Assembly: GCA_902761265.1 (NCBI GenBank)
Contig: CACWJV010000044.1
Span: 1-30,750 of the forward strand
Direction of reading: 5' to 3'
DNA length: 30,750 nucleotides
Source of the DNA: Oscillospiraceae bacterium
GTDB taxonomy: Bacteria; Bacillota; Clostridia; Oscillospirales; Acutalibacteraceae
Shown: one piece after another, positions 2,512 through 25,220 of the stretch
Layout of the letters: every line of letters begins with the position of its first letter
How positions within the stretch are numbered: the stretch's first letter is position 1
Notes under the pieces: model-generated
Told to the model about the DNA's origin: nothing
What the model saw: only the letters and a program-made list of their open reading frames with translations
Databases searched by the model: none
Made by a program: the position numbers and the translations under genes

Positions 2512-3068
2512 TTAAAAGCGGATCAAAAACAGGAGCAAGCCTGCCAGCGCGCAAAGGAACGTGATTCCCCAGCGTTCGAGATAAGCGCCGATATAGCAAC
2601 CGAGAAAACCGGGAGCGAAAATGATTTTTTGAAACAGATTGCCCTCACGGTAGATCTTTTCTTTCATATTCAGCGCATCCTCGATCGACGGATAGCTGTT
2701 GACATACAGCGAAAACGCAAACCAGTAGGCCACGATGTTCACCGCCGTCACGATCGGGTTGCTCATATGGAACACAAAGGTGCCGAGCACGGGACCGATG
2801 GCGAGCAGCAGCGCGAGCACCGCGTTGAACAGCGCCGGCACAAATCCGATGGCAAACGCGCCGCCGGCTTTCGGGAAAAGCTCATGTTCAATATGGGAAC
2901 ACAGCTCGTCACGCCTCAGCAGACGGGTGTCCTCCATCGGCCGCGCCGCAGCAGACGGGTGTCCTCCATCGGCACGCCGTGGATGCGGCAAACCATCTGT
3001 TCCCACAAACAGCGCACAAACGCACCCGGGAAGGTCAGATATCTTGTCAAAATATAAAATGCCGTCAT
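2512..3068 (-). CDS. Multi-pass membrane protein (~174 aa once a 32-nt duplication is removed); resembles a degenerate TFPGxxxHExxH membrane metalloprotease-like family
   Basis: ATG at 3068 overlaps the upstream TGA (TGATG). Frame 1 reads MTAFYILTRYLTFPGAFVRCLWEQMVCRIHGVPMEDTRLLRR; frame 2 reads PMEDTRLLRRDELCSHIEHE...YPSIEDA...LLLFLIRF. 557-32=525 nt restores one frame. The listed 188-aa ORF N-terminus is spurious. Confidence 0.7.
2910..2973. repeat. Tandem 32-nt direct repeat (30/32 identical) inside a CDS
   Basis: 2910-2941 cacgcctcagcagacgggtgtcctccatcggc vs 2942-2973 cgcgccgcagcagacgggtgtcctccatcggc. Confidence 0.95.
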
Positions 3069-16550: not shown

Positions 16551-17645
16551 TCAGATTCTGACGGGCAGAACCAAAAACAGGAATGCTTCGCCTTCGACCG
16601 GCAAAATGAGGATCGGCTGATTGGCGCTGTTGAATTCAATCTTGATTTCGTCCGTTTCGCACGCTTTGAGCGCGTCGAGCATAAACTTACTGTTGAAACC
16701 GATCTCAAGATCCTGACCCTGAACGTCGGCTTCCATCTTATCGGTTGCCGTACCGATCGAGGTGATGGACGAAAACTTCATACGGTTTTGACCGACAACG
16801 CAGCGCACAGGGCTGGAACGGTCTGTGATGATCAGCGAGGTGCGCTCCACACATTCGATCACACGGCGGGTCTGCGCATGTACAGTGGTTGCGGCAGACA
16901 GCGGGATCGCCGCTTTGTAATCGATGAAGTTGCCTTCGAGCAGACGGGAGATGATGCGGTAGTCGCCGACTTCAAACAAAATGTGCCGTTTGCCGACGGA
17001 GATGGAATACATCGCCTCGTCGTCTTCGCTGAGCTTGACGATTTCACCGAGCGATTTTGCCGGTACAACAAAGCTGACCGGGTCGCCGCTGTAATCGATT
17101 TCTTCGCGGCGAATCGCGAGTCTTGCGCCGTCTACAGCCACCAACACGATCTTACCTTCGCTGATTTCAAACTTGACGCCGGAGTGCACCGGGTTCCGTT
17201 CGCTGGTGGAAACGGAGAAAATCGTTTTGCGGATCATATCTTTCAAAAGTCCCTGTTGGATCACGATCGGGAAGCCGCCGGAAATGGTAGGCAGATCGGG
17301 ATACTCCTCGGCGGAGGTGCCGATGATGGAATACTCCGTTTCGCCGCTCTTGATCTTGCAGATATTTCTTTCGTCGCTTTCGATGCTGACCGTCTCATCC
17401 GGGAGCATACGCAGAATATCGCAAAAATTCTTTGCATTCAGGATGATGCTGCCGTTTTCCTCCACTTCGGCTTCCAGATAGGTTTCCGTGCCGACCTCCA
17501 GATCGTAGCCGGTCAGGCGGATGGAGTCTCCGAGCGCGTCGATTAAAATACCTTCGATCGCCGGGATGGTGGATTTACTGGAAACGGTCCGCTGCACATT
17601 CATGCACAGCTTTGCAAGCTTTGCGCTGTCGCAAACGATTTTCAT
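16551..17645 (-). CDS. dnaN: DNA polymerase III beta sliding clamp
   Basis: 364 aa; STIPAIEGILI, GYDLE, AVDGARLA, RLLEGNFIDY, IGFNSKFMLDALK, LVLPVRI. Confidence 0.97.
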   Translation of the reverse strand: MKIVCDSAKLAKLCMNVQRTVSSKSTIPAIEGILIDALGDSIRLTGYDLEVGTETYLEAEVEENGSIILNAKNFCDILRMLPDETVSIESDERNICKIKSGETEYSIIGTSAEEYPDLPTISGGFPIVIQQGLLKDMIRKTIFSVSTSERNPVHSGVKFEISEGKIVLVAVDGARLAIRREEIDYSGDPVSFVVPAKSLGEIVKLSEDDEAMYSISVGKRHILFEVGDYRIISRLLEGNFIDYKAAIPLSAATTVHAQTRRVIECVERTSLIITDRSSPVRCVVGQNRMKFSSITSIGTATDKMEADVQGQDLEIGFNSKFMLDALKACETDEIKIEFNSANQPILILPVEGEAFLFLVLPVRI

Positions 17646-17659
17646 GGTTTTTGCCTCCT

Positions 17660-17876
17660 CGCAAGAAAAGTAAGAATAAAGAATGTAGTAGTCTTAGTAG
17701 GGGATGTGAAAACATGGAAAACAGCGATGACGCCGCAGAAACAGGGCGTTTTCTTTTCTCACCGGCCTTTGAAAAAGCATGTGCAGAAATTGCAAAACGG
17801 CAGGCGGCTGTTTGTCAAACATGAAAAATGTGGAATCTTTCCTGTTAAAAGTGAAATAAACTGTGGAAAACTTTGG
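17660..17876. other. oriC unwinding subregion (dnaA-dnaN intergenic): degenerate DnaA boxes, GC spacer, DnaA-trios, AT-rich tract
   Basis: + strand TAG TAG TCT TAG TAG (17686-17700), then GGGA, then box-like TGTGAAAAC (17705-17713); consensus-matching TGTGGAAAA at 17862-17870. Same layout as the B. subtilis basal unwinding system. Confidence 0.82.
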
Positions 17877-19147
17877 TTATTCGTTGATGTTTTTGATGAT
17901 GTCGTCCACGGTCGCTTTCAGCGTCATGTTTGTTGCAAGCTTGTTTTCCATTTCTTTGATCGAATAGATCATGGTGGAATAGTGCTTGTTGGAAAACTCC
18001 GCGCCGATCGCGCTCAAAGACAGGTTGGTCACTTCGTGAATGATATAAATCGCAACCTGCCGCGCCTGGGAGATGTTGGCGGAGCGTTTTTCCGACCGGA
18101 TGTCGGCCGGGCTGACGTTGAAGGTACGCGATACTTCATTGATGATGTTTTCAACGGTGACCGGCGTGGGCGGATTGTCACCCATAATATCGGAGATTGC
18201 GCGTTTCGCAATGGCGATATTCGGCCGGGCGCCTTCTACTTCCTGATAGGCCTTGATCTTTTTTACGGTGCCTTCGAGCTGGCGGATGTTCTTTTTGATG
18301 TTTTCCGCAATAAACGACACCACGTCGTCGCTGAGATCGACGTTGAGCTCTTCGGCTTTTTTCTTAACGATCGCCATACGCGTTTCCAGCGCAGCCGTTC
18401 TTCGAGCGTAAGCATTTCGCGCGGCGGACGGTCGGACGAAAGCACAATCTGTTTGCCGGCGTTTTTGAGCGCCTCAAACGTGTGGAAGAATTCCTCCTGT
18501 GTGGTCTCTTTGTTCGCAATAAACTGGATATCGTCCACCAGCAGCACGTCGCAGCCGCGGTATTTGTCGTGGAAGGTACTGGTGCTGTGTTCCTTTAAAT
18601 GGTGGATCAGCTCGTTGGTAAAGTGTTCGCCGCTGATATAAAGGATCACTTCGTGCGGCCGCTGGCGTTTGATCTCGTGCATGATTGCGGACAGCAGGTG
18701 CGTTTTACCGAGACCGGAGTGGCCGTAGATAAACAGCGGGTTATACGCTTTGCCGGGATTGTTTGCCACATTCAGCGCCGCCGCGTGTGCAAAGCGGTTG
18801 GACGGGCCGATGATGAAGTTTTGGAAGGTATAGGCTGTTTCCTCCTCCGCGGTCGGCGAAGACTGCGGTTCGGCGGAAAAGCCGGTTTTGAGTTGTGACG
18901 AATCGTCCGGTGTTACATAATGCACACGGACGGGAAACCCGAACGCGTCGGCGCAGGCTTCCTCAATCAGCGAGGAAAACTTGTCTTCAATAATTTTGCG
19001 TTTAAAATCACTGATCGACAGCGTGATGGTATCGGACTGGAAGCTGACAAATTCCAAAGGCGAAAGCCAAACGTTATAGGCAACTTCCGTCACGCGGGAA
19101 CGCAGCAGTTCTTTGATTGATTCCCAGATCTCAACAAACGAATCCAT
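17877..19147 (-). CDS. dnaA: Chromosomal replication initiator DnaA, split by a frameshifting deletion at ~18389
   Basis: ATG 19147 with AAGGAGGT RBS; YNPLFIYGHSGLGKTHLL, LLVDDIQF, SDRPP. Frame breaks after LEERLR and resumes LETRMAIVKKKA...ARQVAIY...KHYSTMIYS; about 15 aa (SRFxWGLxxDIxPPD) missing. Confidence 0.95.
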
Positions 19148-19272
19148 GATCGACCTCCTTAATTTTTTCAAAACCGATGTTGCAAGAATGAAAGAAGTAT
19201 ATTATAATAGGTATACTTACATAATTACAAAAATATATAGATAGGCAGAATACTCTAATATAATTACATTAC

Positions 19273-20016: not shown

Positions 20017-20045
20017 TTGACAAACCAAACACGTTATAATATAAT
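20017..20045 (+). promoter_or_regulatory. Consensus sigma-A promoter of the tRNA operon
   Basis: TTGACA (20017-20022), 17 nt, TATAAT (20040-20045), with an A/T-rich UP-like tract upstream. Confidence 0.88.
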
Positions 20046-20077
20046 AATCGAGCGTTGCGGCAAGCAGTGCTCGTTGT

Positions 20078-20154
20078 GGCGGTATAGCTCAGTTGGCTAG
20101 AGCATTCGGTTCATACCCGGAGTGTCGTAGGTTCAAATCCCACTGCCGCTACCA
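20078..20154 (+). tRNA. tRNA-Met(CAT), elongator type
   Basis: GGCGGTATAGCTCAGTTGGCTAGAGC...TTCGG TTCATAC CCGGA...GGTTCAAATCC...GCCGCT ACCA. Lacks the C1:A72 mismatch and three anticodon-stem G:C pairs of the initiator; resembles the Bacillota elongator Met. Confidence 0.93.
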
Positions 20155-20161
20155 TCTTTTA

Positions 20162-20279
20162 AAATAACGGCTTCGGCTGTTGACATATAACAATAACAGC
20201 TCCGGCTGTTCACATATAGAAAATGACAGCTTCGGCTGTTCCAATATAAAAAACGAGAGCTTCGGCTCTTCACATATAA
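20162..20279 (+). repeat. Four tandem ~30-nt units, each a 6-bp stem with a C(UNCG)G tetraloop and an A/U-rich linker
   Basis: Hairpins at 20166-20181, 20195-20210, 20225-20240, 20255-20270; consensus RACAGC-TTCG-GCTGTT-CACATATA. Confidence 0.93.
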
Positions 20280-20354
20280 GGCCCGGTGGTCAAGCGGTTA
20301 AGACACCGCCCTTTCACGGCGGTAACACGAGTTCGATTCTCGTCCGGGTCACCA
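20280..20354 (+). tRNA. tRNA-Glu(TTC)
   Basis: GGCCCGGTGGTCAAGCGGTTAAGACACCGCC CTTTCAC GGCGGTAACACGAGTTCGATTCTCGTCCGGGTC ACCA. Confidence 0.96.
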
Positions 20355-20441
20355 CGCCCCTGTTGCTTGGCAGGGGCGCACCCTGCAGCTCAGGGCAGGA
20401 AGTTACTTTCTGAGGTTATCGTGTCTTGTTCGACTGAAATG

Positions 20442-20484
20442 AAAAAAGCGCAGGCAGTTCATAGCGAGCTGCCTGCTTTTTTTT
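20442..20484. terminator. Intrinsic terminator, probably bidirectional, ending the tRNA operon and the element's minus-strand operon
   Basis: aaaaaagc-gcaggcagttc-atagc-gagctgcctgc-tttttttt. Confidence 0.8.
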
Positions 20485-20681
20485 ATGCCGTTGCCGGTTT
20501 CGTTTTCGGAACCGGCGTCAGCTTTTCAATTTTGAGAATCTGAAAATGCACGGGCTTTTTCTCTAGTGGCGGAAGATGTTCCATATCAATCTTTCTGCTC
20601 AGCCTTGCATATTCCTGTTTTGTCCATTCTGCTGCGTTCATGTGGATAATTTGTTTGCTGCGATTCCCATTTTTTCTTCAA
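20483..20681 (-). pseudogene. Possible relic of a large serine recombinase N-terminus
   Basis: Strong RBS (GGAGG) before TTG 20681. The sequence aca gga ata tgc aag gct gag cag becomes KTGIYARLSR if 2 nt are restored; no further recognisable homology. Confidence 0.3.
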
Positions 20682-20725
20682 ATCGCGTCCTCCTTTCCTC
20701 ATAGAATCTATTATCTGCATCAAAA

Positions 20726-21562
20726 TCACCTTGCGTCCCTCTCCCGATTTCGAAGGTAGCGGGCGTAGTGTTCACAGGCTATTTCAATAAAATCTTGCAG
20801 CTGTTTAATCGAATAGTTCGGCCTGAAACGACGGACGGATGCAACAGGAATTTTGATTATTTCTGCCTGGTTCGGTTTTGGCTGATCCAAAATCTGTTTC
20901 AGGCTTTCGGTTGTGAGCGTACCGTCATTGCTGCGTTTTTTCATTTGATTCGCCTGCGAATATGAGGGCGTTACCTCATTTTCGGCATAGTAATCATACA
21001 CTGCCTTTTGTGCCGCTTCCGAAAGATAGGAAAGCTACACGGCCGGGCTGAGCGCGATCCGTCCTTCATCCACGAGATCAAGCAGCGGCTTGATCAAATA
21101 CGTCAAGCGGATATACCTCTGAATTTGAGTTTCACTTTCTCCGACATCGGCTGCAACCAGCCCGCGGGATGACTTCTGTCCGACTTGGACAGAAGTTTTG
21201 CCCTGATGAGCAAGCGCGTCAACTTTCATCTTATAAGCGAACGCTTTCTCGGACGGTAACAAACCTTCTCTCTGCAAATTGCTGTCTACCATACAAATCA
21301 CCGCCTCCTCTCGATCCATGGGACGAATAAAGGCAGGAATCATTTCGACCCCTGCCTTTTTACAAGCGTGTATGCGCCGGTGACCGCTGACAGTTTCATA
21401 GGTTCCGTTGGCCAAAGGTCTGACCAAAATCGGAAACATAACGCCGTAATCCGAAATGCTCTGAACGAGCAATTCCATAGCGAAATCATCCCTGACTTTG
21501 AATGGGTTTTCGCAAAACGGCACGCAGTGATCGACACGGATTTTTTCAAATTTCATATTCAT
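20726..21562 (-). pseudogene. Mobile-element ParB/RepB/Spo0J-family protein with an in-frame TAG at 21035-21037
   Basis: NPFKVRDD, SGHRRIHAC, MVDSNLQRE, PSEKAFAYKMK; GRIALSPAV*LSYL continues in frame into the 91-aa ORF (278 codons in total). Confidence 0.82.
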
Positions 21563-21647
21563 TTTTTATATTTCCTTTCTGCCCGTTCGGCCGATAGCGC
21601 AGCCAAGAATTCAAGATATTAAAAAGTTTAAGGGCCCGTCGAAAGCA

Positions 21648-22901
21648 TCAACGGTCAAGATCGTCCCGGTACCGATTTCGCGCATAATATTCGCGCCGCA
21701 TTCTTTCCCTTTCAGCCTTTTCTTCTGCCTCTTTGTTCGAAAACAAACCCTTGAGGTTATCAAGAAATCTATGAACGACTTCTGGAAAAGATTCCAGTGC
21801 GTCAAGAAACGGTTTGCACTTTTCGACAAGCTTATCGTACTTCCTTTGCAGGTTGCTGAGTGCATTCTGCACATCGTAATACAGACCGCGGTAATAGCGC
21901 TCGCTTTCCTGCAAACGGTTGATTTCTCCGCGGCTGGAAATGCCCTCTTTCGCAAGCGCCGTGAGTTGCTCATAGTCCTCTTTTGAAACAGAATACTTGC
22001 CGGTGACAGGACTTTTCTTTCCGGCTTTATCGATTTCAAGATAGGTCTTATGCAGCTCCTTTGCCGGTTCGTATGCGAGCTCGGCTTCTTGCTTTTTTTG
22101 CTCGATTTCATGCAGCCGTTCGGTATCTTTTTTGATCTGATATTGCAGCGATGAGAGATGCTCGACAGGGCTGCCTTTCATCCCGCGGGCGAATCCGGTG
22201 AAGCCGTGTTCGGTCATATGCTGATAGAATTCATCCTGCAAAACGCTGTAGGAAGCGCGGTACTTCTGCTTGCCGTTTGCACGAAAAATCTGCTTGCCGC
22301 GATCGTCATACATCGGTTCCGTTGACGCCCATTTTTTGGAATGACTGATCTGATGGATGACCTCTTTGACCGTACCGACCAAAGCCGGGTCTTTGCACCG
22401 TTTGCTATAGCGAACTTCTTTGTCAACCACCGGCATCGCGATCAGATGCATATGGTAATGATAGACCGCGCGGTCAAGGTCTTCACTGGCGGCAAGATTG
22501 ATCTCGTCGGCGTGCATGACGGCGGAAATGATGTTCCGTTCCCCATACTTTTCACAGGCATAATGGTACGCTTCTTCATAAAACTTTTTCGCGTATTCAT
22601 ATCCGCCGTGGTCTTCAAAATACATGGTGTTCACATCGAAGATCACCTCGTCAAAAAGCACCGCGTCGGCCCGTAATCCTTTGCGTGAAATCTCACCGGA
22701 CGCTTCCATTTCACGCAGAATATCCATATAGGATTTCTCTCCGGGATCTTTGAAATGGACGTTCATTGGGATCCGATACGGCTCAACATTTACGTTTCCG
22801 TAGTCCTTGTTTTTGCGCTCCACATGTCGCTCACACGCACCGATCTTTGCGGACGAATAGGTCTGTACACGGGCGCAGCTCATATTCTTTTCGTTTGCCA
22901 T
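21648..22901 (-). CDS. Plasmid recombination enzyme / MOBV relaxase (Mob_Pre)
   Basis: ERHVERKN, AVLFDEVIFDV, ISAVMHADE...YHYHMHL, SVLQDEFYQHM...GF.RG, coiled-coil C-terminus. Confidence 0.88.
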   Translation of the reverse strand: MANEKNMSCARVQTYSSAKIGACERHVERKNKDYGNVNVEPYRIPMNVHFKDPGEKSYMDILREMEASGEISRKGLRADAVLFDEVIFDVNTMYFEDHGGYEYAKKFYEEAYHYACEKYGERNIISAVMHADEINLAASEDLDRAVYHYHMHLIAMPVVDKEVRYSKRCKDPALVGTVKEVIHQISHSKKWASTEPMYDDRGKQIFRANGKQKYRASYSVLQDEFYQHMTEHGFTGFARGMKGSPVEHLSSLQYQIKKDTERLHEIEQKKQEAELAYEPAKELHKTYLEIDKAGKKSPVTGKYSVSKEDYEQLTALAKEGISSRGEINRLQESERYYRGLYYDVQNALSNLQRKYDKLVEKCKPFLDALESFPEVVHRFLDNLKGLFSNKEAEEKAERERMRREYYARNRYRDDLDR

Positions 22902-22937
22902 TGTCTGTCCTCCTTTCCTTCAGTTTTCTGCGAAGCA

Positions 22938-22980
22938 GGTTACACAACATTCTGCCGAATGTGTGTAACCCACTATGACA
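22938..22980. promoter_or_regulatory. Putative oriT (RSA-type) for the MOBV relaxase
   Basis: Inverted repeat ggttacac(a)acattc / gaatgtgtgtaacc. Minus strand CATAGTGGGTTACAC resembles the pMV158-family core TATAGTGTGTTATAC; lies just upstream of the relaxase. Confidence 0.7.
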
Positions 22981-23049
22981 CTTTCAGCGAAGCTGCAAAG
23001 ATGTCCGTGGGCAAGGGGAGAGCCCCTTGACTCCCATACGGGGCTGCGC

Positions 23050-24114
23050 TTAAAATGGCAGATCGCCGCCGAACAAGTCTTTCTGCCATTTCTCGTTTGC
23101 CGCATCGGCCGCCGGCATTGACCAGTACCAAACAAAGCCGTCTTTTTCTGACAAAACGCCGGCATTTCTTTTGGCTTTTTTGACGGTTGATTTTTTGAAT
23201 CCGGCGGCTTCCAGCTTCATTTCACAGTCATTCGCAAGCATTCTTCCGTCCTTCAGCATGCTTCGAATAAAGTCTGTTGCGGCGTCCAGTTTTTCGCACG
23301 GCCTACCTTGTTTCGGCACCAATGCGGATAGTGCCTGCTCCGCCGTCAGGTTAAGTTCATCGAGAAAATCAACGCCGTTTTCTTTCACCTCAAAGAGAAT
23401 CGCAGAGCCGGTCGGCGCGAGATTTGACTTCACCTGAACCATCACTCTTTCGCTCGAGTTTTCTTGATTTTTCGTTCGTGCAATCGCCAAAATACTTCGT
23501 ACCGATTCGGCAATATCGATCGAACCGGAGGTGCGATAAAGCGGCGAAGTTTCCCGAGATTTGTTCATATGTGCTATGATCACAACCGCGCAGCCGGTGT
23601 CTCTTGCAACGGTAATCAGATGGTTGAATGCTGCTCTTGTTTCGTTCGCAGCGTTCAAAGAACAACTGTCTCCGATATAAGAACTGAGCGGATCGAGGAT
23701 CAAAAGACCGGCTTTGTATTTTTCAATAGCTTCTCTGATTCGGTTGTCGCCAAAGGTCAGATTCTTTTTCTTTTCGCTGATAAAAATCAGTCGGTCCCGG
23801 TCTCCGGCAGAAGCAGTAAACCGAGGCACAACAGTGTCGTCCGCGTCGTCTTCTGTCGTCTGATAGATGATGGTCATCGGTTCGTGCGCTTCACTTTCAT
23901 CCGTAAACGGCAGTGGTTTTCCCCGCGACAAGGTTGCGGAAAGCGCGAGCATCAGTTTGCTTTTTCCGTCGCCCGGATCGCCCTGAAGCAGTGTCACTTT
24001 GCCGAAAGGAATATACGGATACCAAAGCCATTTTATTTCCTTCGGCGTGATTTCACTTGCCCGGATGACTTCAAGTTCGACGTCAGAAAGAGGGTTGGTT
24101 TGATTGCTGTTCAT
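23050..24114 (-). CDS. AAA_25 / RepA-like ATPase of mobile elements
   Basis: WLWYPYIPFGKVTLLQGDPGDGKSK Walker A, LLILDPL Walker B, IIAHMNK, GSIDI, QVKSNLAP. Confidence 0.85.
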   Translation of the reverse strand: MNSNQTNPLSDVELEVIRASEITPKEIKWLWYPYIPFGKVTLLQGDPGDGKSKLMLALSATLSRGKPLPFTDESEAHEPMTIIYQTTEDDADDTVVPRFTASAGDRDRLIFISEKKKNLTFGDNRIREAIEKYKAGLLILDPLSSYIGDSCSLNAANETRAAFNHLITVARDTGCAVVIIAHMNKSRETSPLYRTSGSIDIAESVRSILAIARTKNQENSSERVMVQVKSNLAPTGSAILFEVKENGVDFLDELNLTAEQALSALVPKQGRPCEKLDAATDFIRSMLKDGRMLANDCEMKLEAAGFKKSTVKKAKRNAGVLSEKDGFVWYWSMPAADAANEKWQKDLFGGDLPF

Positions 24115-24286
24115 ATTGGTTCACACTCCTTTTTGAAATATAATTTGGGCATTCGATGACAATAGCACGGAAGCTCTGTTTGCATTTCCGTTTGCATTGT
24201 CTGCAGAGTACGTTATACGATTTTCTGCCTCGCTCATTCAGAAAGATTGCCCATTCTTTCTTGAGGTATTTCGGCATTCTCGGCAT
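24083..24286 (-). CDS. Small Cys-containing hypothetical protein (67 aa) typical of clostridial elements
   Basis: ATG 24286 with GGGAGGTG RBS; MPRMPKYLKKEWAIFLNERGRKSYNVLCRQCKRKCKQSFRAIVIECPNY; overlaps the AAA gene start. Confidence 0.7.
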   Translation of the reverse strand: MPRMPKYLKKEWAIFLNERGRKSYNVLCRQCKRKCKQSFRAIVIECPNYISKRSVNQYEQQSNQPSF

Positions 24287-24486
24287 TCGATCACCTCCCT
24301 TTTTCCGTTCGTCTGCTGCCGACAGCCGAACCCGTTTTCTCCGGAACGCAGAAACGCCGGAACTCGTACCCAACTGTTGGTTTTCGGGGCGATTTCTGGC
24401 GTTTTTATTCGCTGTGAGGCACCGCTCAAGGATAAGCGATAGTATCCCTTTTCTTGCCTTCACATCAGAATTGCTGCATTTCGGGT

Positions 24487-24524
24487 ATAAAAAAGAAACC
24501 GGATCTCTTTACGGAACCGATTTC
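24487..24524 (-). terminator. Terminator-like hairpin in the leader of the rep/mob operon
   Basis: Minus strand gaaatcgg...ccggtttc followed by tttttt. Confidence 0.4.
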
Positions 24525-24608
24525 CATGTAATACTATAATAATACGTCTCAGCCCGGCGCGGCGAATGCTTCCATGGATGCGCCGACTTTATGACTTCTT
24601 GATCACTT

Positions 24609-24635
24609 GCCGGAGATAAAATCCGGCTTTTTTTT
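24609..24635 (+). terminator. Terminator-like hairpin on + strand with no CDS upstream
   Basis: gccgga-gataaaa-tccggc followed by 8 T. Confidence 0.5.
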
Positions 24636-24794
24636 ATCAGCCTCCTACTTTATCTATAGTCGAAAATTTGGTTTTTACCGACGACTGCGTGACAGACGAT
24701 TTTGAAGGAGTGTGACAAAAACGATTTCACACATTCGACGAATTTCTGACTCTGTGATAGGATGGAATCACCAAAGAAAACGGAGGTATGTTAT

Positions 24795-25220
24795 ATGGAA
24801 AAATTTATCATTGATGAGTGCACCGGGTGGGAATATGAATTGAAAGGCGACTACTATTATCCGACCGGCAGAGTCAGGAAAAACGGCGTAATGGTGCCGG
24901 AAGAAATGCCGGAAACTGATCCGGCGGAGGAGAAAAAACAGTCAATCGGTATTTGGGGAGAACGGCATTTACAGTACATCAAGCAATATAAAAAATCTAT
25001 GTATTTCGAACTGTATATTTCTGGCAAGTTGAACGCGTATCTTGTAAATGTCAACGTACAGGCAACGGATTTATTGCTTCGGCTGGAAAACGATATGGCA
25101 GAGCAGGAGGGTGTGACGGAACAGATCAAAGCTGAAGATCCAATGCGCTGGGTTGGGTTGATGAATAACATACGAAACAGGGCAATGGAAATTGTGAACA
25201 GCGAATTGATATTTGCATAG
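24795..25220 (+). CDS. tnpV: TnpV-family transposon-encoded protein
   Basis: ATG 24795 with GGAGG RBS; YELKGDYYYP, IGIWGERHLQYIK, GKLNAYL, EGVTEQIKAEDPMRWVGLMNNIRNRAMEIV. Confidence 0.88.
   Translation: MEKFIIDECTGWEYELKGDYYYPTGRVRKNGVMVPEEMPETDPAEEKKQSIGIWGERHLQYIKQYKKSMYFELYISGKLNAYLVNVNVQATDLLLRLENDMAEQEGVTEQIKAEDPMRWVGLMNNIRNRAMEIVNSELIFA

What the first reader, a model, noticed from the sequence alone, without database searches (positions are those of the whole stretch)
20155..20279. Array of four covarying C(UNCG)G RNA hairpins filling the tRNA-Met/tRNA-Glu spacer
Seen: four units with 29-30-nt period: AACGGC-TTCG-GCTGTT, AACAGC-TCCG-GCTGTT, GACAGC-TTCG-GCTGTT, GAGAGC-TTCG-GCTCTT. They are joined by 13-14-nt A/U-rich linkers (GACATATAACAAT, CACATATAGAAAAT, CCAATATAAAAAAC); the last CACATATAA is the tRNA-Glu leader. 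Every stem substitution keeps pairing (A:U to G:U wobbles and one double C:G to G:C swap), and the only loop change (UUCG to UCCG) stays in the extra-stable UNCG class with a C:G closing pair. That pattern indicates selection on RNA structure rather than neutral slippage. The array is co-transcribed from a perfect consensus promoter, so tRNA processing would release an abundant ~125-nt multi-hairpin RNA or four mini-hairpins. I know no named family for it. Hypotheses (inference): a multivalent sponge for an RNA-binding protein; decoy or mini-helix substrates for tRNA-processing or anticodon nucleases; an orphan type III antitoxin-like repeat cut at A-rich linkers; or a processing or stability element.
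Basis: partly seen in the sequence, partly recalled or inferred. Interest (0 to 1): 0.8.

Follow-up and report, generated by a model that had tools for sequence, protein, structure and literature searches.

The report
Tandem hairpin repeats in tRNA spacer
The four small RNA hairpins between the tRNA-Met and tRNA-Glu genes are real and kept foldable by selection, but they are a lineage-specific 2-5-fold tandem copy of an ordinary single spacer hairpin found throughout the genus, most likely a passive processing element, not a new regulatory RNA.

Summary
Window 20155-20279 is the tRNA-Met(CAU)/tRNA-Glu(UUC) spacer. It holds four 16-nt hairpins (6-bp stem, UUCG or UCCG loop) at a 29-30-nt period, joined by A/U-rich linkers.

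The structure is selected on the plus-strand RNA. In 40 distinct units from 17 loci, the four inner pairs form in 160 of 160 cells and three pairs show double compensatory changes. There are 10 G·U cells and no A·C cells, and loops switch between UNCG-like and GAAA.

The context lowers the interest:
- Most congeners examined (26 loci folded) have a ~50-nt spacer with one longer hairpin and the same flanks.
- One monophyletic clade carries 2-5 tandem copies of that whole module.
- In other families of the order, every Met-Glu spacer of 33 nt or more holds an unrelated strong hairpin.
- The unit occurs nowhere else in the genome, has no Rfam match and no adjacent toxin gene.

Best reading: a copy-number-variable expansion of a structured internal transcribed spacer. 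The hairpins self-contain the spacer RNA, block exonucleases, and present AU-rich linkers to RNase Y and a 9-nt leader to RNase P. Sponge, decoy and antitoxin ideas have no support. No expression data could be obtained. The scan has noted tRNA-linked hairpin repeats on other DNA before.

The parts
20017..20045 (+). Sigma-70-type promoter of the tRNA operon (TTGACA, 17 nt, TATAAT), preceded by an A/T-rich stretch
   Evidence: 12 of 12 consensus matches; sequence
20053..20077 (+). 5' leader of tRNA-Met with its own hairpin
   Evidence: the 45 nt upstream of tRNA-Met fold at -14.6 kcal/mol
20078..20154 (+). tRNA-Met(CAU) with encoded CCA. Probably the elongator type; the other two CAU tRNAs in the genome look like the initiator and tRNA-Ile2, judged from memory of consensus sequences.
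   Evidence: (Rfam tRNA, 59.3 bits)
20155..20165 (+). U/A-rich single-stranded trailer between the CCA end and the first hairpin; conserved as U-run plus AAAAU in congeners. Candidate endonuclease entry site.
20166..20181 (+). Hairpin unit 1: AACGGC / UUCG / GCUGUU, with one G.U pair
   Evidence: -5.8 kcal/mol
20182..20194 (+). Linker 1, 13 nt, with the invariant ATATA core
20195..20210 (+). Hairpin unit 2: AACAGC / UCCG / GCUGUU
   Evidence: -7.5 kcal/mol
20211..20224 (+). Linker 2, 14 nt. It carries a GA dinucleotide in AU-rich context 5 nt before the next hairpin, which fits the weak RNase Y motif.
   Evidence: motif from PMC11780869
20225..20240 (+). Hairpin unit 3: GACAGC / UUCG / GCUGUU, with a G.U pair at the base
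   Evidence: -6.9 kcal/mol
20241..20254 (+). Linker 3, 14 nt
20255..20270 (+). Hairpin unit 4: GAGAGC / UUCG / GCUCUU. It keeps the ancestral G:C at the third pair.
   Evidence: -7.1 kcal/mol; comparison
20271..20279 (+). 9-nt leader of tRNA-Glu (CACAUAUAA). The same motif ends every repeat unit and is conserved across the genus.
20280..20354 (+). tRNA-Glu(UUC) with encoded CCA; the only tRNA-Glu gene found in this assembly
   Evidence: (66 bits)
20450..20486 (+). Intrinsic terminator closing the operon: 11-bp stem plus U-run, with an A-run upstream, so probably bidirectional

Best explanation
The array is a lineage-specific tandem expansion of the whole tRNA-Met/tRNA-Glu internal transcribed spacer module. 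It holds 4 copies here and 2-5 in sister lineages.

The module has three parts: a short A-rich stretch, a stable hairpin, and the motif YACAUAUAA that serves as the tRNA-Glu leader. The module is single-copy in the rest of the genus.

The expansion arose by slippage or unequal recombination in the ancestor of one clade. Units have since been gained, lost and partly homogenised.

Each copy is kept by selection as a fast-folding, tetraloop-capped hairpin in the plus-strand precursor RNA.

Proposed working (inferred):
- The hairpins lock up spacer sequence, so it cannot mispair with the neighbouring tRNAs.
- They act as roadblocks to RNase J (5'-3') and PNPase (3'-5').
- They leave AU-rich single-stranded linkers just upstream of a structure, which is the context RNase Y prefers.
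- They leave a fixed 9-nt leader for RNase P.
- The spacer is then cut out and discarded.

The extra copies are probably nearly neutral repeats of a functional single element, not a new trans-acting RNA.
For: Shown:
- 26 congeneric loci have a 48-55-nt spacer with one bipartite hairpin and the same flanks.
- Arrays of 2-5 units occur in G000, G001, G006, G463, G469, G473, G477 and G524 out of 117 genus genomes, and in 12 metagenome contigs, always in this spacer.
- On a tree of the upstream nth gene, the array-bearing loci form one clade (100/100) next to single-hairpin species, despite up to about 25% nth divergence.
- Covariation: 93.3% of cells are paired, against 84.8% in shuffles. The inner four pairs form in 160 of 160 cells. 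Three of six pairs show double changes. No shuffle out of 500 reaches the covariation score.
- Strand: 10 G.U cells and no A.C cell, and the fold z-scores.
- Loops are TTCG 29, TCCG 13, CTCG 3, GAAA 2, CCCG 1 and GTCA 1. Stability is conserved, not loop identity.
- In 16 other families of the order the Met-Glu adjacency is kept. All 11 spacers of 33 nt or more contain unrelated hairpins (z -2.7 to -8.4), and spacers of 0-29 nt contain none.
- The unit is absent elsewhere in the genome and in 400 family genomes.
- RNase Y and RNase J are present.

From the literature: RNase Y prefers purine-A in AU-rich unstructured RNA with structure downstream (PMC11780869; PMC5449607).
Against: - No transcript or cleavage data. 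Contigs of four RNA runs gave zero coverage over 20161-20259, which is uninformative.
- The linker core ATATA is invariant in all 40 distinct units, and the arrays persist in every member of the clade. This hints at sequence-specific recognition, or at a benefit of multiplicity, that a passive role does not require.
- The equilibrium fold prefers a nested alternative by 3.7 kcal/mol.
- The nuclease assignments rest on an 87.6%-complete MAG and on rules from Bacillus and Staphylococcus.
- Hairpins in a 3' trailer should slow tRNA-Met 3' trimming, so the net benefit is not obvious.
Confidence: 0.55

Rival explanations
1. Spacer-derived functional RNA. After RNase P and endonuclease cuts, the exonuclease-resistant multi-hairpin fragment or its monomers accumulate to tRNA-like levels. 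They then titrate an RNA-binding protein, a nuclease or a small RNA through the repeated ACAUAUA linker. This is a multivalent sponge or decoy, analogous to tRNA spacer sponges in E. coli.
For: - A strong promoter and an essential operon imply high synthesis.
- The hairpins should protect the fragment. No RNase R, II or PH hit was found.
- The ATATA linker core is invariant across 40 distinct units.
- Arrays are retained in all 13 sampled lineages of the clade.
Against: - No Hfq found.
- The linker motif and its complement are not enriched in the genome: 5 occurrences on both strands against about 14 for shuffled 9-mers.
- Copy number drifts from 2 to 5, and the rest of the genus manages with one.
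- Loop sequence is not conserved.
- No RNA detected (uninformative).
Confidence: 0.12
2. Purely DNA-level, neutral repeat. Slippage made the copies, and apparent compensatory changes come from template switching within quasi-palindromes and from gene conversion between units, not from selection on RNA.
For: - Perfect inverted repeats are hotspots of templated correction (established knowledge, from memory).
- Units 1-3 of the G000 clade share the same C:G swap, which shows concerted evolution.
- Copy number varies.
Against: - Strand asymmetry: 10 G.U cells and 0 A.C cells.
- The plus strand is far more stable than the minus strand.
- Loops stay within stable tetraloop classes, including a four-base change from UUCG to GAAA.
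- Unrelated hairpins fill the same spacer in other families.
- The arrays persist across about 25% divergence of the neighbouring gene.
Confidence: 0.1
3. Multiplicity is itself adaptive in cis. More hairpins lengthen and stiffen the spacer, delaying or uncoupling maturation of tRNA-Met and tRNA-Glu, or buffering them against processive exonucleases. This would tune the ratio or quality of the two tRNAs.
For: - Every clade member keeps at least 2 units.
- Other families also stack 2-3 different hairpins in long spacers (L135 and L136).
- The exonuclease set appears limited.
Against: - Copy number is not fixed (2, 3, 4 or 5).
- Many relatives have spacers of 0-7 nt between the same two tRNAs.
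- No data on tRNA levels.
Confidence: 0.1
4. Orphan type III antitoxin-like repeat RNA cut at A-rich linkers by a cognate endoribonuclease toxin.
For: Tandem short repeats with A-rich junctions resemble ToxI superficially.
Against: - The array lies inside a housekeeping tRNA operon and derives from its own spacer.
- The next gene is tRNA-Glu, not a toxin.
- No ToxN_toxin hit in the genome (the control genomes also lacked it, so this is weak).
- The units are simple 16-nt hairpins, not about 36-nt pseudoknot-forming repeats.
Confidence: 0.01
5. Minus-strand function: four weak intrinsic terminators that stop antisense transcription from the convergent mobile-element genes, or palindromic DNA operators.
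For: The pattern scan lists minus-strand hairpin-plus-T-run sites at three units, and downstream genes are on the minus strand.
Against: - The minus-strand fold is not better than shuffles.
- The G.U pairs become C.A mismatches on that strand.
- A strong bidirectional terminator already lies at 20450-20476.
- Symmetric base swaps would destroy a protein operator.
- The hairpin predates and is independent of the mobile element.
Confidence: 0.02

Closest known systems
Structured internal transcribed spacers of polycistronic bacterial tRNA precursors (spacer stem-loops flanked by AU-rich endonuclease sites)
   Same: The position between two co-transcribed tRNAs, a hairpin flanked by A/U-rich single strands, and removal expected by RNase P plus an endonuclease. 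The same spacer in 11 other families of the order also holds hairpins.
   Different: Here the module is repeated 4 times head to tail with tetraloop-capped 6-bp stems. The cutting enzyme is presumed to be RNase Y rather than RNase E, which was not found.
E. coli tyrT distal repeats / RtT RNA
   Same: A tandem duplication of spacer or trailer sequence within a tRNA transcription unit, transcribed with the tRNA and of unclear function.
   Different: The tyrT units start with a piece of the tRNA 3' end and are about 6 times longer. The present unit contains no tRNA sequence and lies between two tRNAs.
tRNA spacer-derived sRNA sponges (3'ETS of leuZ and the ITS of metZ-metW-metV in E. coli; from memory; concept appears in papers listed)
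   Same: An abundant by-product of tRNA processing that could act in trans.
   Different: Those act by Hfq-dependent base pairing with specific sRNAs and are not hairpin repeats. No Hfq and no complementary partner were found here.
Type III toxin-antitoxin antitoxin RNAs (ToxI, CptI, TenpI)
   Same: Tandem short RNA repeats with A-rich junctions.
   Different: There is no adjacent toxin gene, no ToxN hit, simple hairpins, and an origin from a housekeeping spacer.
Tandem-repeat intergenic spacers between mitochondrial tRNA genes (gadiform T-P spacer, PMC4236577, listed; title and abstract start only)
   Same: A spacer between two tRNA genes that is reported to generate a noncoding RNA.
   Different: An organellar genome, a different processing system, and no homology.

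Membership tests
Any Rfam family | Covariance-model match in the spacer | tested here: not met
   at E up to 10, only the two tRNAs and weak chance hits outside 20155-20279
Type III TA antitoxin RNA | Repeat array directly upstream of its endoribonuclease toxin gene, usually separated by a terminator | tested here: not met
   the next gene is tRNA-Glu; no toxin-like ORF follows on the plus strand.
Type III TA antitoxin RNA | Cognate ToxN/AbiQ-like toxin in the genome | tested here: inconclusive
   no PF13958 hit. However, the family rang in no control genome, the MAG is 87.6% complete, and the CptN and TenpN families were not searched.
tyrT-type tRNA-distal repeats | The repeat unit includes a segment of the tRNA 3' end | tested here: not met
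   the tRNA-Glu 3' end occurs once; the unit sequences contain no tRNA-Met or tRNA-Glu segment.
REP/BIME-like dispersed palindromic elements | Many copies dispersed in intergenic regions of the genome | tested here: not met
   the only other match (2 mismatches) lies inside a coding region; no dispersed copies in relatives.
Intrinsic terminators (plus strand) | GC-rich stem followed by a U-run | tested here: not met
   no plus-strand terminator-like site inside the spacer. The hairpins are followed by CACAUAUA.
CRISPR array | Constant repeats separated by unique spacers of about 30 nt | tested here: not met
   the 13-14-nt linkers are themselves conserved
Structured tRNA internal transcribed spacer | Lies between two same-strand tRNA genes with no promoter or terminator between them | tested here: met
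Structured tRNA internal transcribed spacer | RNA secondary structure conserved in orthologous spacers | tested here: met
Structured tRNA internal transcribed spacer | Co-transcription and endonucleolytic removal demonstrated | not testable with these tools
   the RNA contigs do not cover the spacer, and no read-level data were available
tRNA spacer-derived sRNA sponge | A stable spacer fragment that base-pairs with sRNAs via a chaperone | tested here: inconclusive
   no Hfq; no enrichment of the complement. The stability of the fragment is unknown.

The most novel reading that the evidence does not exclude
The clade has turned a throw-away spacer into a product. The array is made in tRNA-like amounts and cut at the conserved AUAUA linkers into exonuclease-resistant mini-hairpins, or kept as one multi-hairpin RNA. 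These then occupy or titrate a specific factor. One candidate is RNase Y or PNPase themselves, giving a built-in decoy that buffers RNA decay against tRNA transcription rate. Another is a linker-binding protein.
Probability: 0.1. Interest if true: 0.65.

Novelty: new variant of a known kind. Interest (0 to 1): 0.3.

Why it matters
It is a clean natural example of selection acting on the foldability of spacer RNA rather than on its sequence. The evidence is compensatory swaps, strand-specific wobbles and tetraloop class switching in about 50 young repeat copies, plus unrelated hairpins filling the same spacer across an order.

It suggests a simple rule, that long tRNA spacers must be locked into hairpins. 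It also offers a defined substrate series (1 to 5 units) for testing how RNase Y, RNase J, PNPase and RNase P handle structured spacers in Clostridia.

It does not reveal a new class of RNA or system.

Tried and rejected
1. Rfam at permissive threshold: nothing in the spacer.
2. Other copies in the genome: none. The C25 hit is coding sequence.
3. Family-wide pattern scan of 400 genomes: only scattered 2-mismatch singles, at the level of the reversed-pattern control.
4. Metagenome scan: 63 of 75 loci were single chance matches. Most sit in sequence without tRNAs.
5. The G497 hit is an unrelated 5'-UTR hairpin.
6. RNA runs: contigs of four runs cover the nth gene at depth 2-6, and the tRNAs mostly from other organisms. 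They do not cover 20161-20259, so they give no evidence either way.
7. oriC idea: dnaA and dnaN lie 1-3 kb away, but DnaA boxes do not cluster at the array.
8. att-site idea: the tRNA-Glu 3' end is not repeated in the window.
9. Search for a target of the linker motif: no enrichment.
10. Type III antitoxin, antisense terminators, DNA operators and CRISPR: rejected, as set out under the rival explanations and membership tests.
11. A small ORF across the array (20180-20413) overlaps tRNA-Glu, and the 29/30-nt period breaks the frame, so it is judged spurious.

Full report
**1. Observation**

The window holds tRNA-Met(cat) at 20078-20154 and tRNA-Glu(ttc) at 20280-20354 on the plus strand (Rfam tRNA scores 59 and 66 bits). 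The 125 nt between them contain a period-30 repeat of 4.0 copies.

Read directly, the spacer is laid out as follows:
- an 11-nt U/A-rich trailer
- four 16-nt hairpins at 20166, 20195, 20225 and 20255, each with a 6-bp stem and a UUCG or UCCG loop closed by C-G
- three linkers of 13-14 nt
- a final 9-nt CACAUAUAA that abuts tRNA-Glu

Several checks show this is more than chance:
- The 10-nt core occurs three times in the window against 0.14 expected.
- The plus strand folds at z = -4.66 and the minus strand at z = -1.23.
- A perfect TTGACA-17-TATAAT promoter (20017-20045) and a strong terminator (20450-20476) bracket the two tRNAs. Nothing promoter- or terminator-like lies on the plus strand inside the spacer.

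One caveat applies. Because the units are near-identical palindromes, the equilibrium minimum pairs arms of different units (-33.4 kcal/mol, against -29.7 for four local hairpins). Local hairpins are expected on kinetic grounds only.

**2. What it is**

The genome is an 87.6%-complete MAG of 304 contigs. Its nearest relatives are titled Ruminococcaceae bacterium RUG MAGs. The unit occurs nowhere else in the genome; the one 2-mismatch hit lies in coding sequence. The other long tRNA-tRNA gaps in the genome are terminator-plus-promoter junctions.

In 26 congeneric loci that were folded, the Met-Glu spacer is 48-55 nt. It contains one bipartite hairpin: a conserved AAAGAG/CUCUUU base with a variable upper stem. 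A U-run plus AAAAU precedes it, and in most of these loci YACAUAUAA follows it.

The repeat unit of the array is therefore the entire ancestral spacer module with a shortened hairpin. Evidence on its distribution:
- A scan of all 117 genomes of the genus found the short hairpin type at this locus only in G000, G001, G006, G463, G469, G473, G477 and G524.
- Inspection gives 2, 3 or more, and 4 units in those genomes. Often the longer ancestral hairpin is retained as the last unit.
- Twelve metagenome contigs add arrays of 3, 4 and 5 units.
- On a maximum-likelihood tree of the upstream nth gene, all array-bearing loci form one clade (100/100). Its sister group is three single-hairpin species. 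Within the clade, nth identity to the window falls to about 74%.

So the expansion is old, has been retained in every sampled lineage, and varies in copy number.

**3. Selection on RNA structure**

I aligned 49 short units, of which 40 are distinct, without gaps. Counting the 6-bp helix gave these results:
- 93.3% of cells are paired, against 84.8 +/- 1.1% in shuffles.
- The four inner pairs form in 160 of 160 cells.
- Three of six pairs show changes on both sides: G:C 29 and C:G 11 at one pair; A:U, G:C and U:A at the next; G:C and A:U at the third.
- No shuffle out of 500 reaches the covariation score. Sliding the partner by 1-3 columns lowers pairing to 30-54%.
- There are 10 G.U cells. None of the 16 unpaired cells is A.C (they are C.U or U.U at the two outer pairs). 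The helix is therefore a plus-strand RNA feature, not a DNA palindrome or a minus-strand RNA.

Loop counts are UUCG 29, UCCG 13, CUCG 3, GAAA 2, CCCG 1 and GUCA 1. A complete change from UUCG to GAAA keeps an extra-stable tetraloop while discarding the sequence. This argues for selection on hairpin stability and against loop-specific recognition.

Units are related and partly homogenised within arrays. For example, units 1-3 of the G000 clade share one swap. The counts therefore overstate the number of independent events. Template switching in quasi-palindromes could also produce some double changes. That mechanism does not explain the strand asymmetry or the loop classes.

The linkers behave differently from the stems. 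The ATATA core and most of the A-rich stretch are invariant or nearly so in all 40 distinct units, while the three bases before ATATA vary. I have no firm explanation for this sequence constraint.

**4. Wider context**

In 16 genomes from other families of the order the tRNA-Met to tRNA-Glu adjacency is conserved. All 11 spacers of 33-85 nt contain one to three strong hairpins with unrelated sequences. Their z-scores run from -2.7 to -8.4 against mononucleotide shuffles. The five spacers of 0-29 nt have none.

Other multi-tRNA operons of G000 also carry hairpins in their longer spacers. A structured spacer is thus the norm. This clade fills the spacer with repeated mini-hairpins instead of one long hairpin.

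**5. Mechanism (inferred)**

All tRNA genes here encode CCA. The nuclease searches gave:

| Enzyme | Result in G000 |
|---|---|
| RNase Y | found above cut-off |
| RNase J | found above cut-off |
| RNase E/G | not found |
| RNase Z | not found above cut-off |
| RNase R | not found above cut-off |
| RNase PH | not found above cut-off |

A 735-aa ORF with PH and S1 matches is probably PNPase. All absences are subject to the 87.6% completeness of the MAG.

Published mapping in B. subtilis describes RNase Y sites as a weak purine-A (best GA) motif in AU-rich, unstructured RNA, frequently with structure just downstream (PMC11780869). In S. aureus a downstream duplex directs cleavage 6 nt upstream (PMC5449607). 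The linkers fit this picture; linker 2 has UAUAG-AAAAU 5 nt before hairpin 3.

I therefore propose three roles for the hairpins:
- They self-contain the spacer RNA so that it does not interfere with tRNA folding.
- They stop RNase J and PNPase.
- They position RNase Y cuts in the linkers and in the trailer after the CCA end, and preserve a 9-nt leader for RNase P.

None of these steps is shown. Four RNA runs that contain the neighbouring nth gene at low depth gave no contig over the repeat. That proves nothing, because assemblers drop repeats and small RNAs.

**6. Rivals**

- A trans-acting sponge or decoy remains possible. The points in favour are high synthesis, a protected fragment, the invariant linker core and retention of arrays. 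It has no positive support: no Hfq, no enriched complementary motif, and a drifting copy number.
- A purely neutral DNA repeat is contradicted by the strand-specific signals.
- An antitoxin-like array, antisense terminators, DNA operators, an oriC element and an integration scar are each rejected on specific tests.

**7. Comparison and novelty**

No Rfam family matches. The closest known things are ordinary structured tRNA spacers and the tandem tyrT-distal repeats of E. coli. This array differs from the tyrT repeats in lacking any tRNA segment and in being a mini-hairpin repeat between two tRNAs.

I class it as a new variant of a known kind, with modest interest (0.3). The structural conservation is unusually clear and gives a usable model substrate. 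Nothing points to a new system.

Noticed in passing
window 16551-19171 (minus strand): dnaN (16551-17645) and dnaA lie just upstream of nth and the tRNA operon, so the window is at or near the replication origin. dnaA is split into two overlapping ORFs in different frames: 18263-19171 with DnaA_N plus the ATPase domain, and 17877-18377 with the C-terminal HTH. This suggests a frameshift or an assembly error in the MAG. DnaA-box-like sites lie at 17862 and 19307.
   Followed up: partly
window 20483-25220: A mobile-element-like block lies directly after the tRNA-Glu terminator. The minus strand carries a ParB_N protein (21035-21562), a Mob_Pre relaxase (21648-22901) and an AAA_25/KaiC-like ATPase (23050-24114); TnpV is on the plus strand (24762-25220). 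GC falls from about 0.55 to 0.43-0.49. No repeat of the tRNA-Glu 3' end occurs within the window.
   Followed up: partly
window 20355-20400: Two strong hairpins lie directly after the CCA end of tRNA-Glu (-25.1 kcal/mol for 45 nt), before the terminator at 20450. Their function was not examined.
   Followed up: no
window 20053-20077: The 5' leader of tRNA-Met also forms a stable hairpin that ends 4 nt before the mature 5' end. It may protect the primary transcript's 5' end.
   Followed up: no
G000 contig C52:5202-5365 (outside the window): The Asp-Gly and Gly-Gly spacers of another tRNA operon each carry a hairpin; the downstream context of tRNA-Gly(gcc), which contains the 52-nt Gly-Gly spacer, folds at -21.1 kcal/mol. 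This fits the rule that longer tRNA spacers in this organism are structured.
   Followed up: partly
L136 (G046:C32:11200-11500): The 85-nt Met-Glu spacer of a genome from another family holds three different strong hairpins in a row (-33.7 kcal/mol, z -6.5). This is a non-repetitive counterpart of the array.
   Followed up: partly
window 2912-2973: A 32-bp tandem repeat of 1.9 copies at 96% identity, reported by Tandem Repeats Finder. Not examined.
   Followed up: no
whole genome G000: No hit above cut-off for RNase E/G, RNase Z, RNase R, RNase PH or Hfq in this 87.6%-complete MAG, while RNase Y and RNase J are present. All tRNA genes examined encode CCA.
   Followed up: partly
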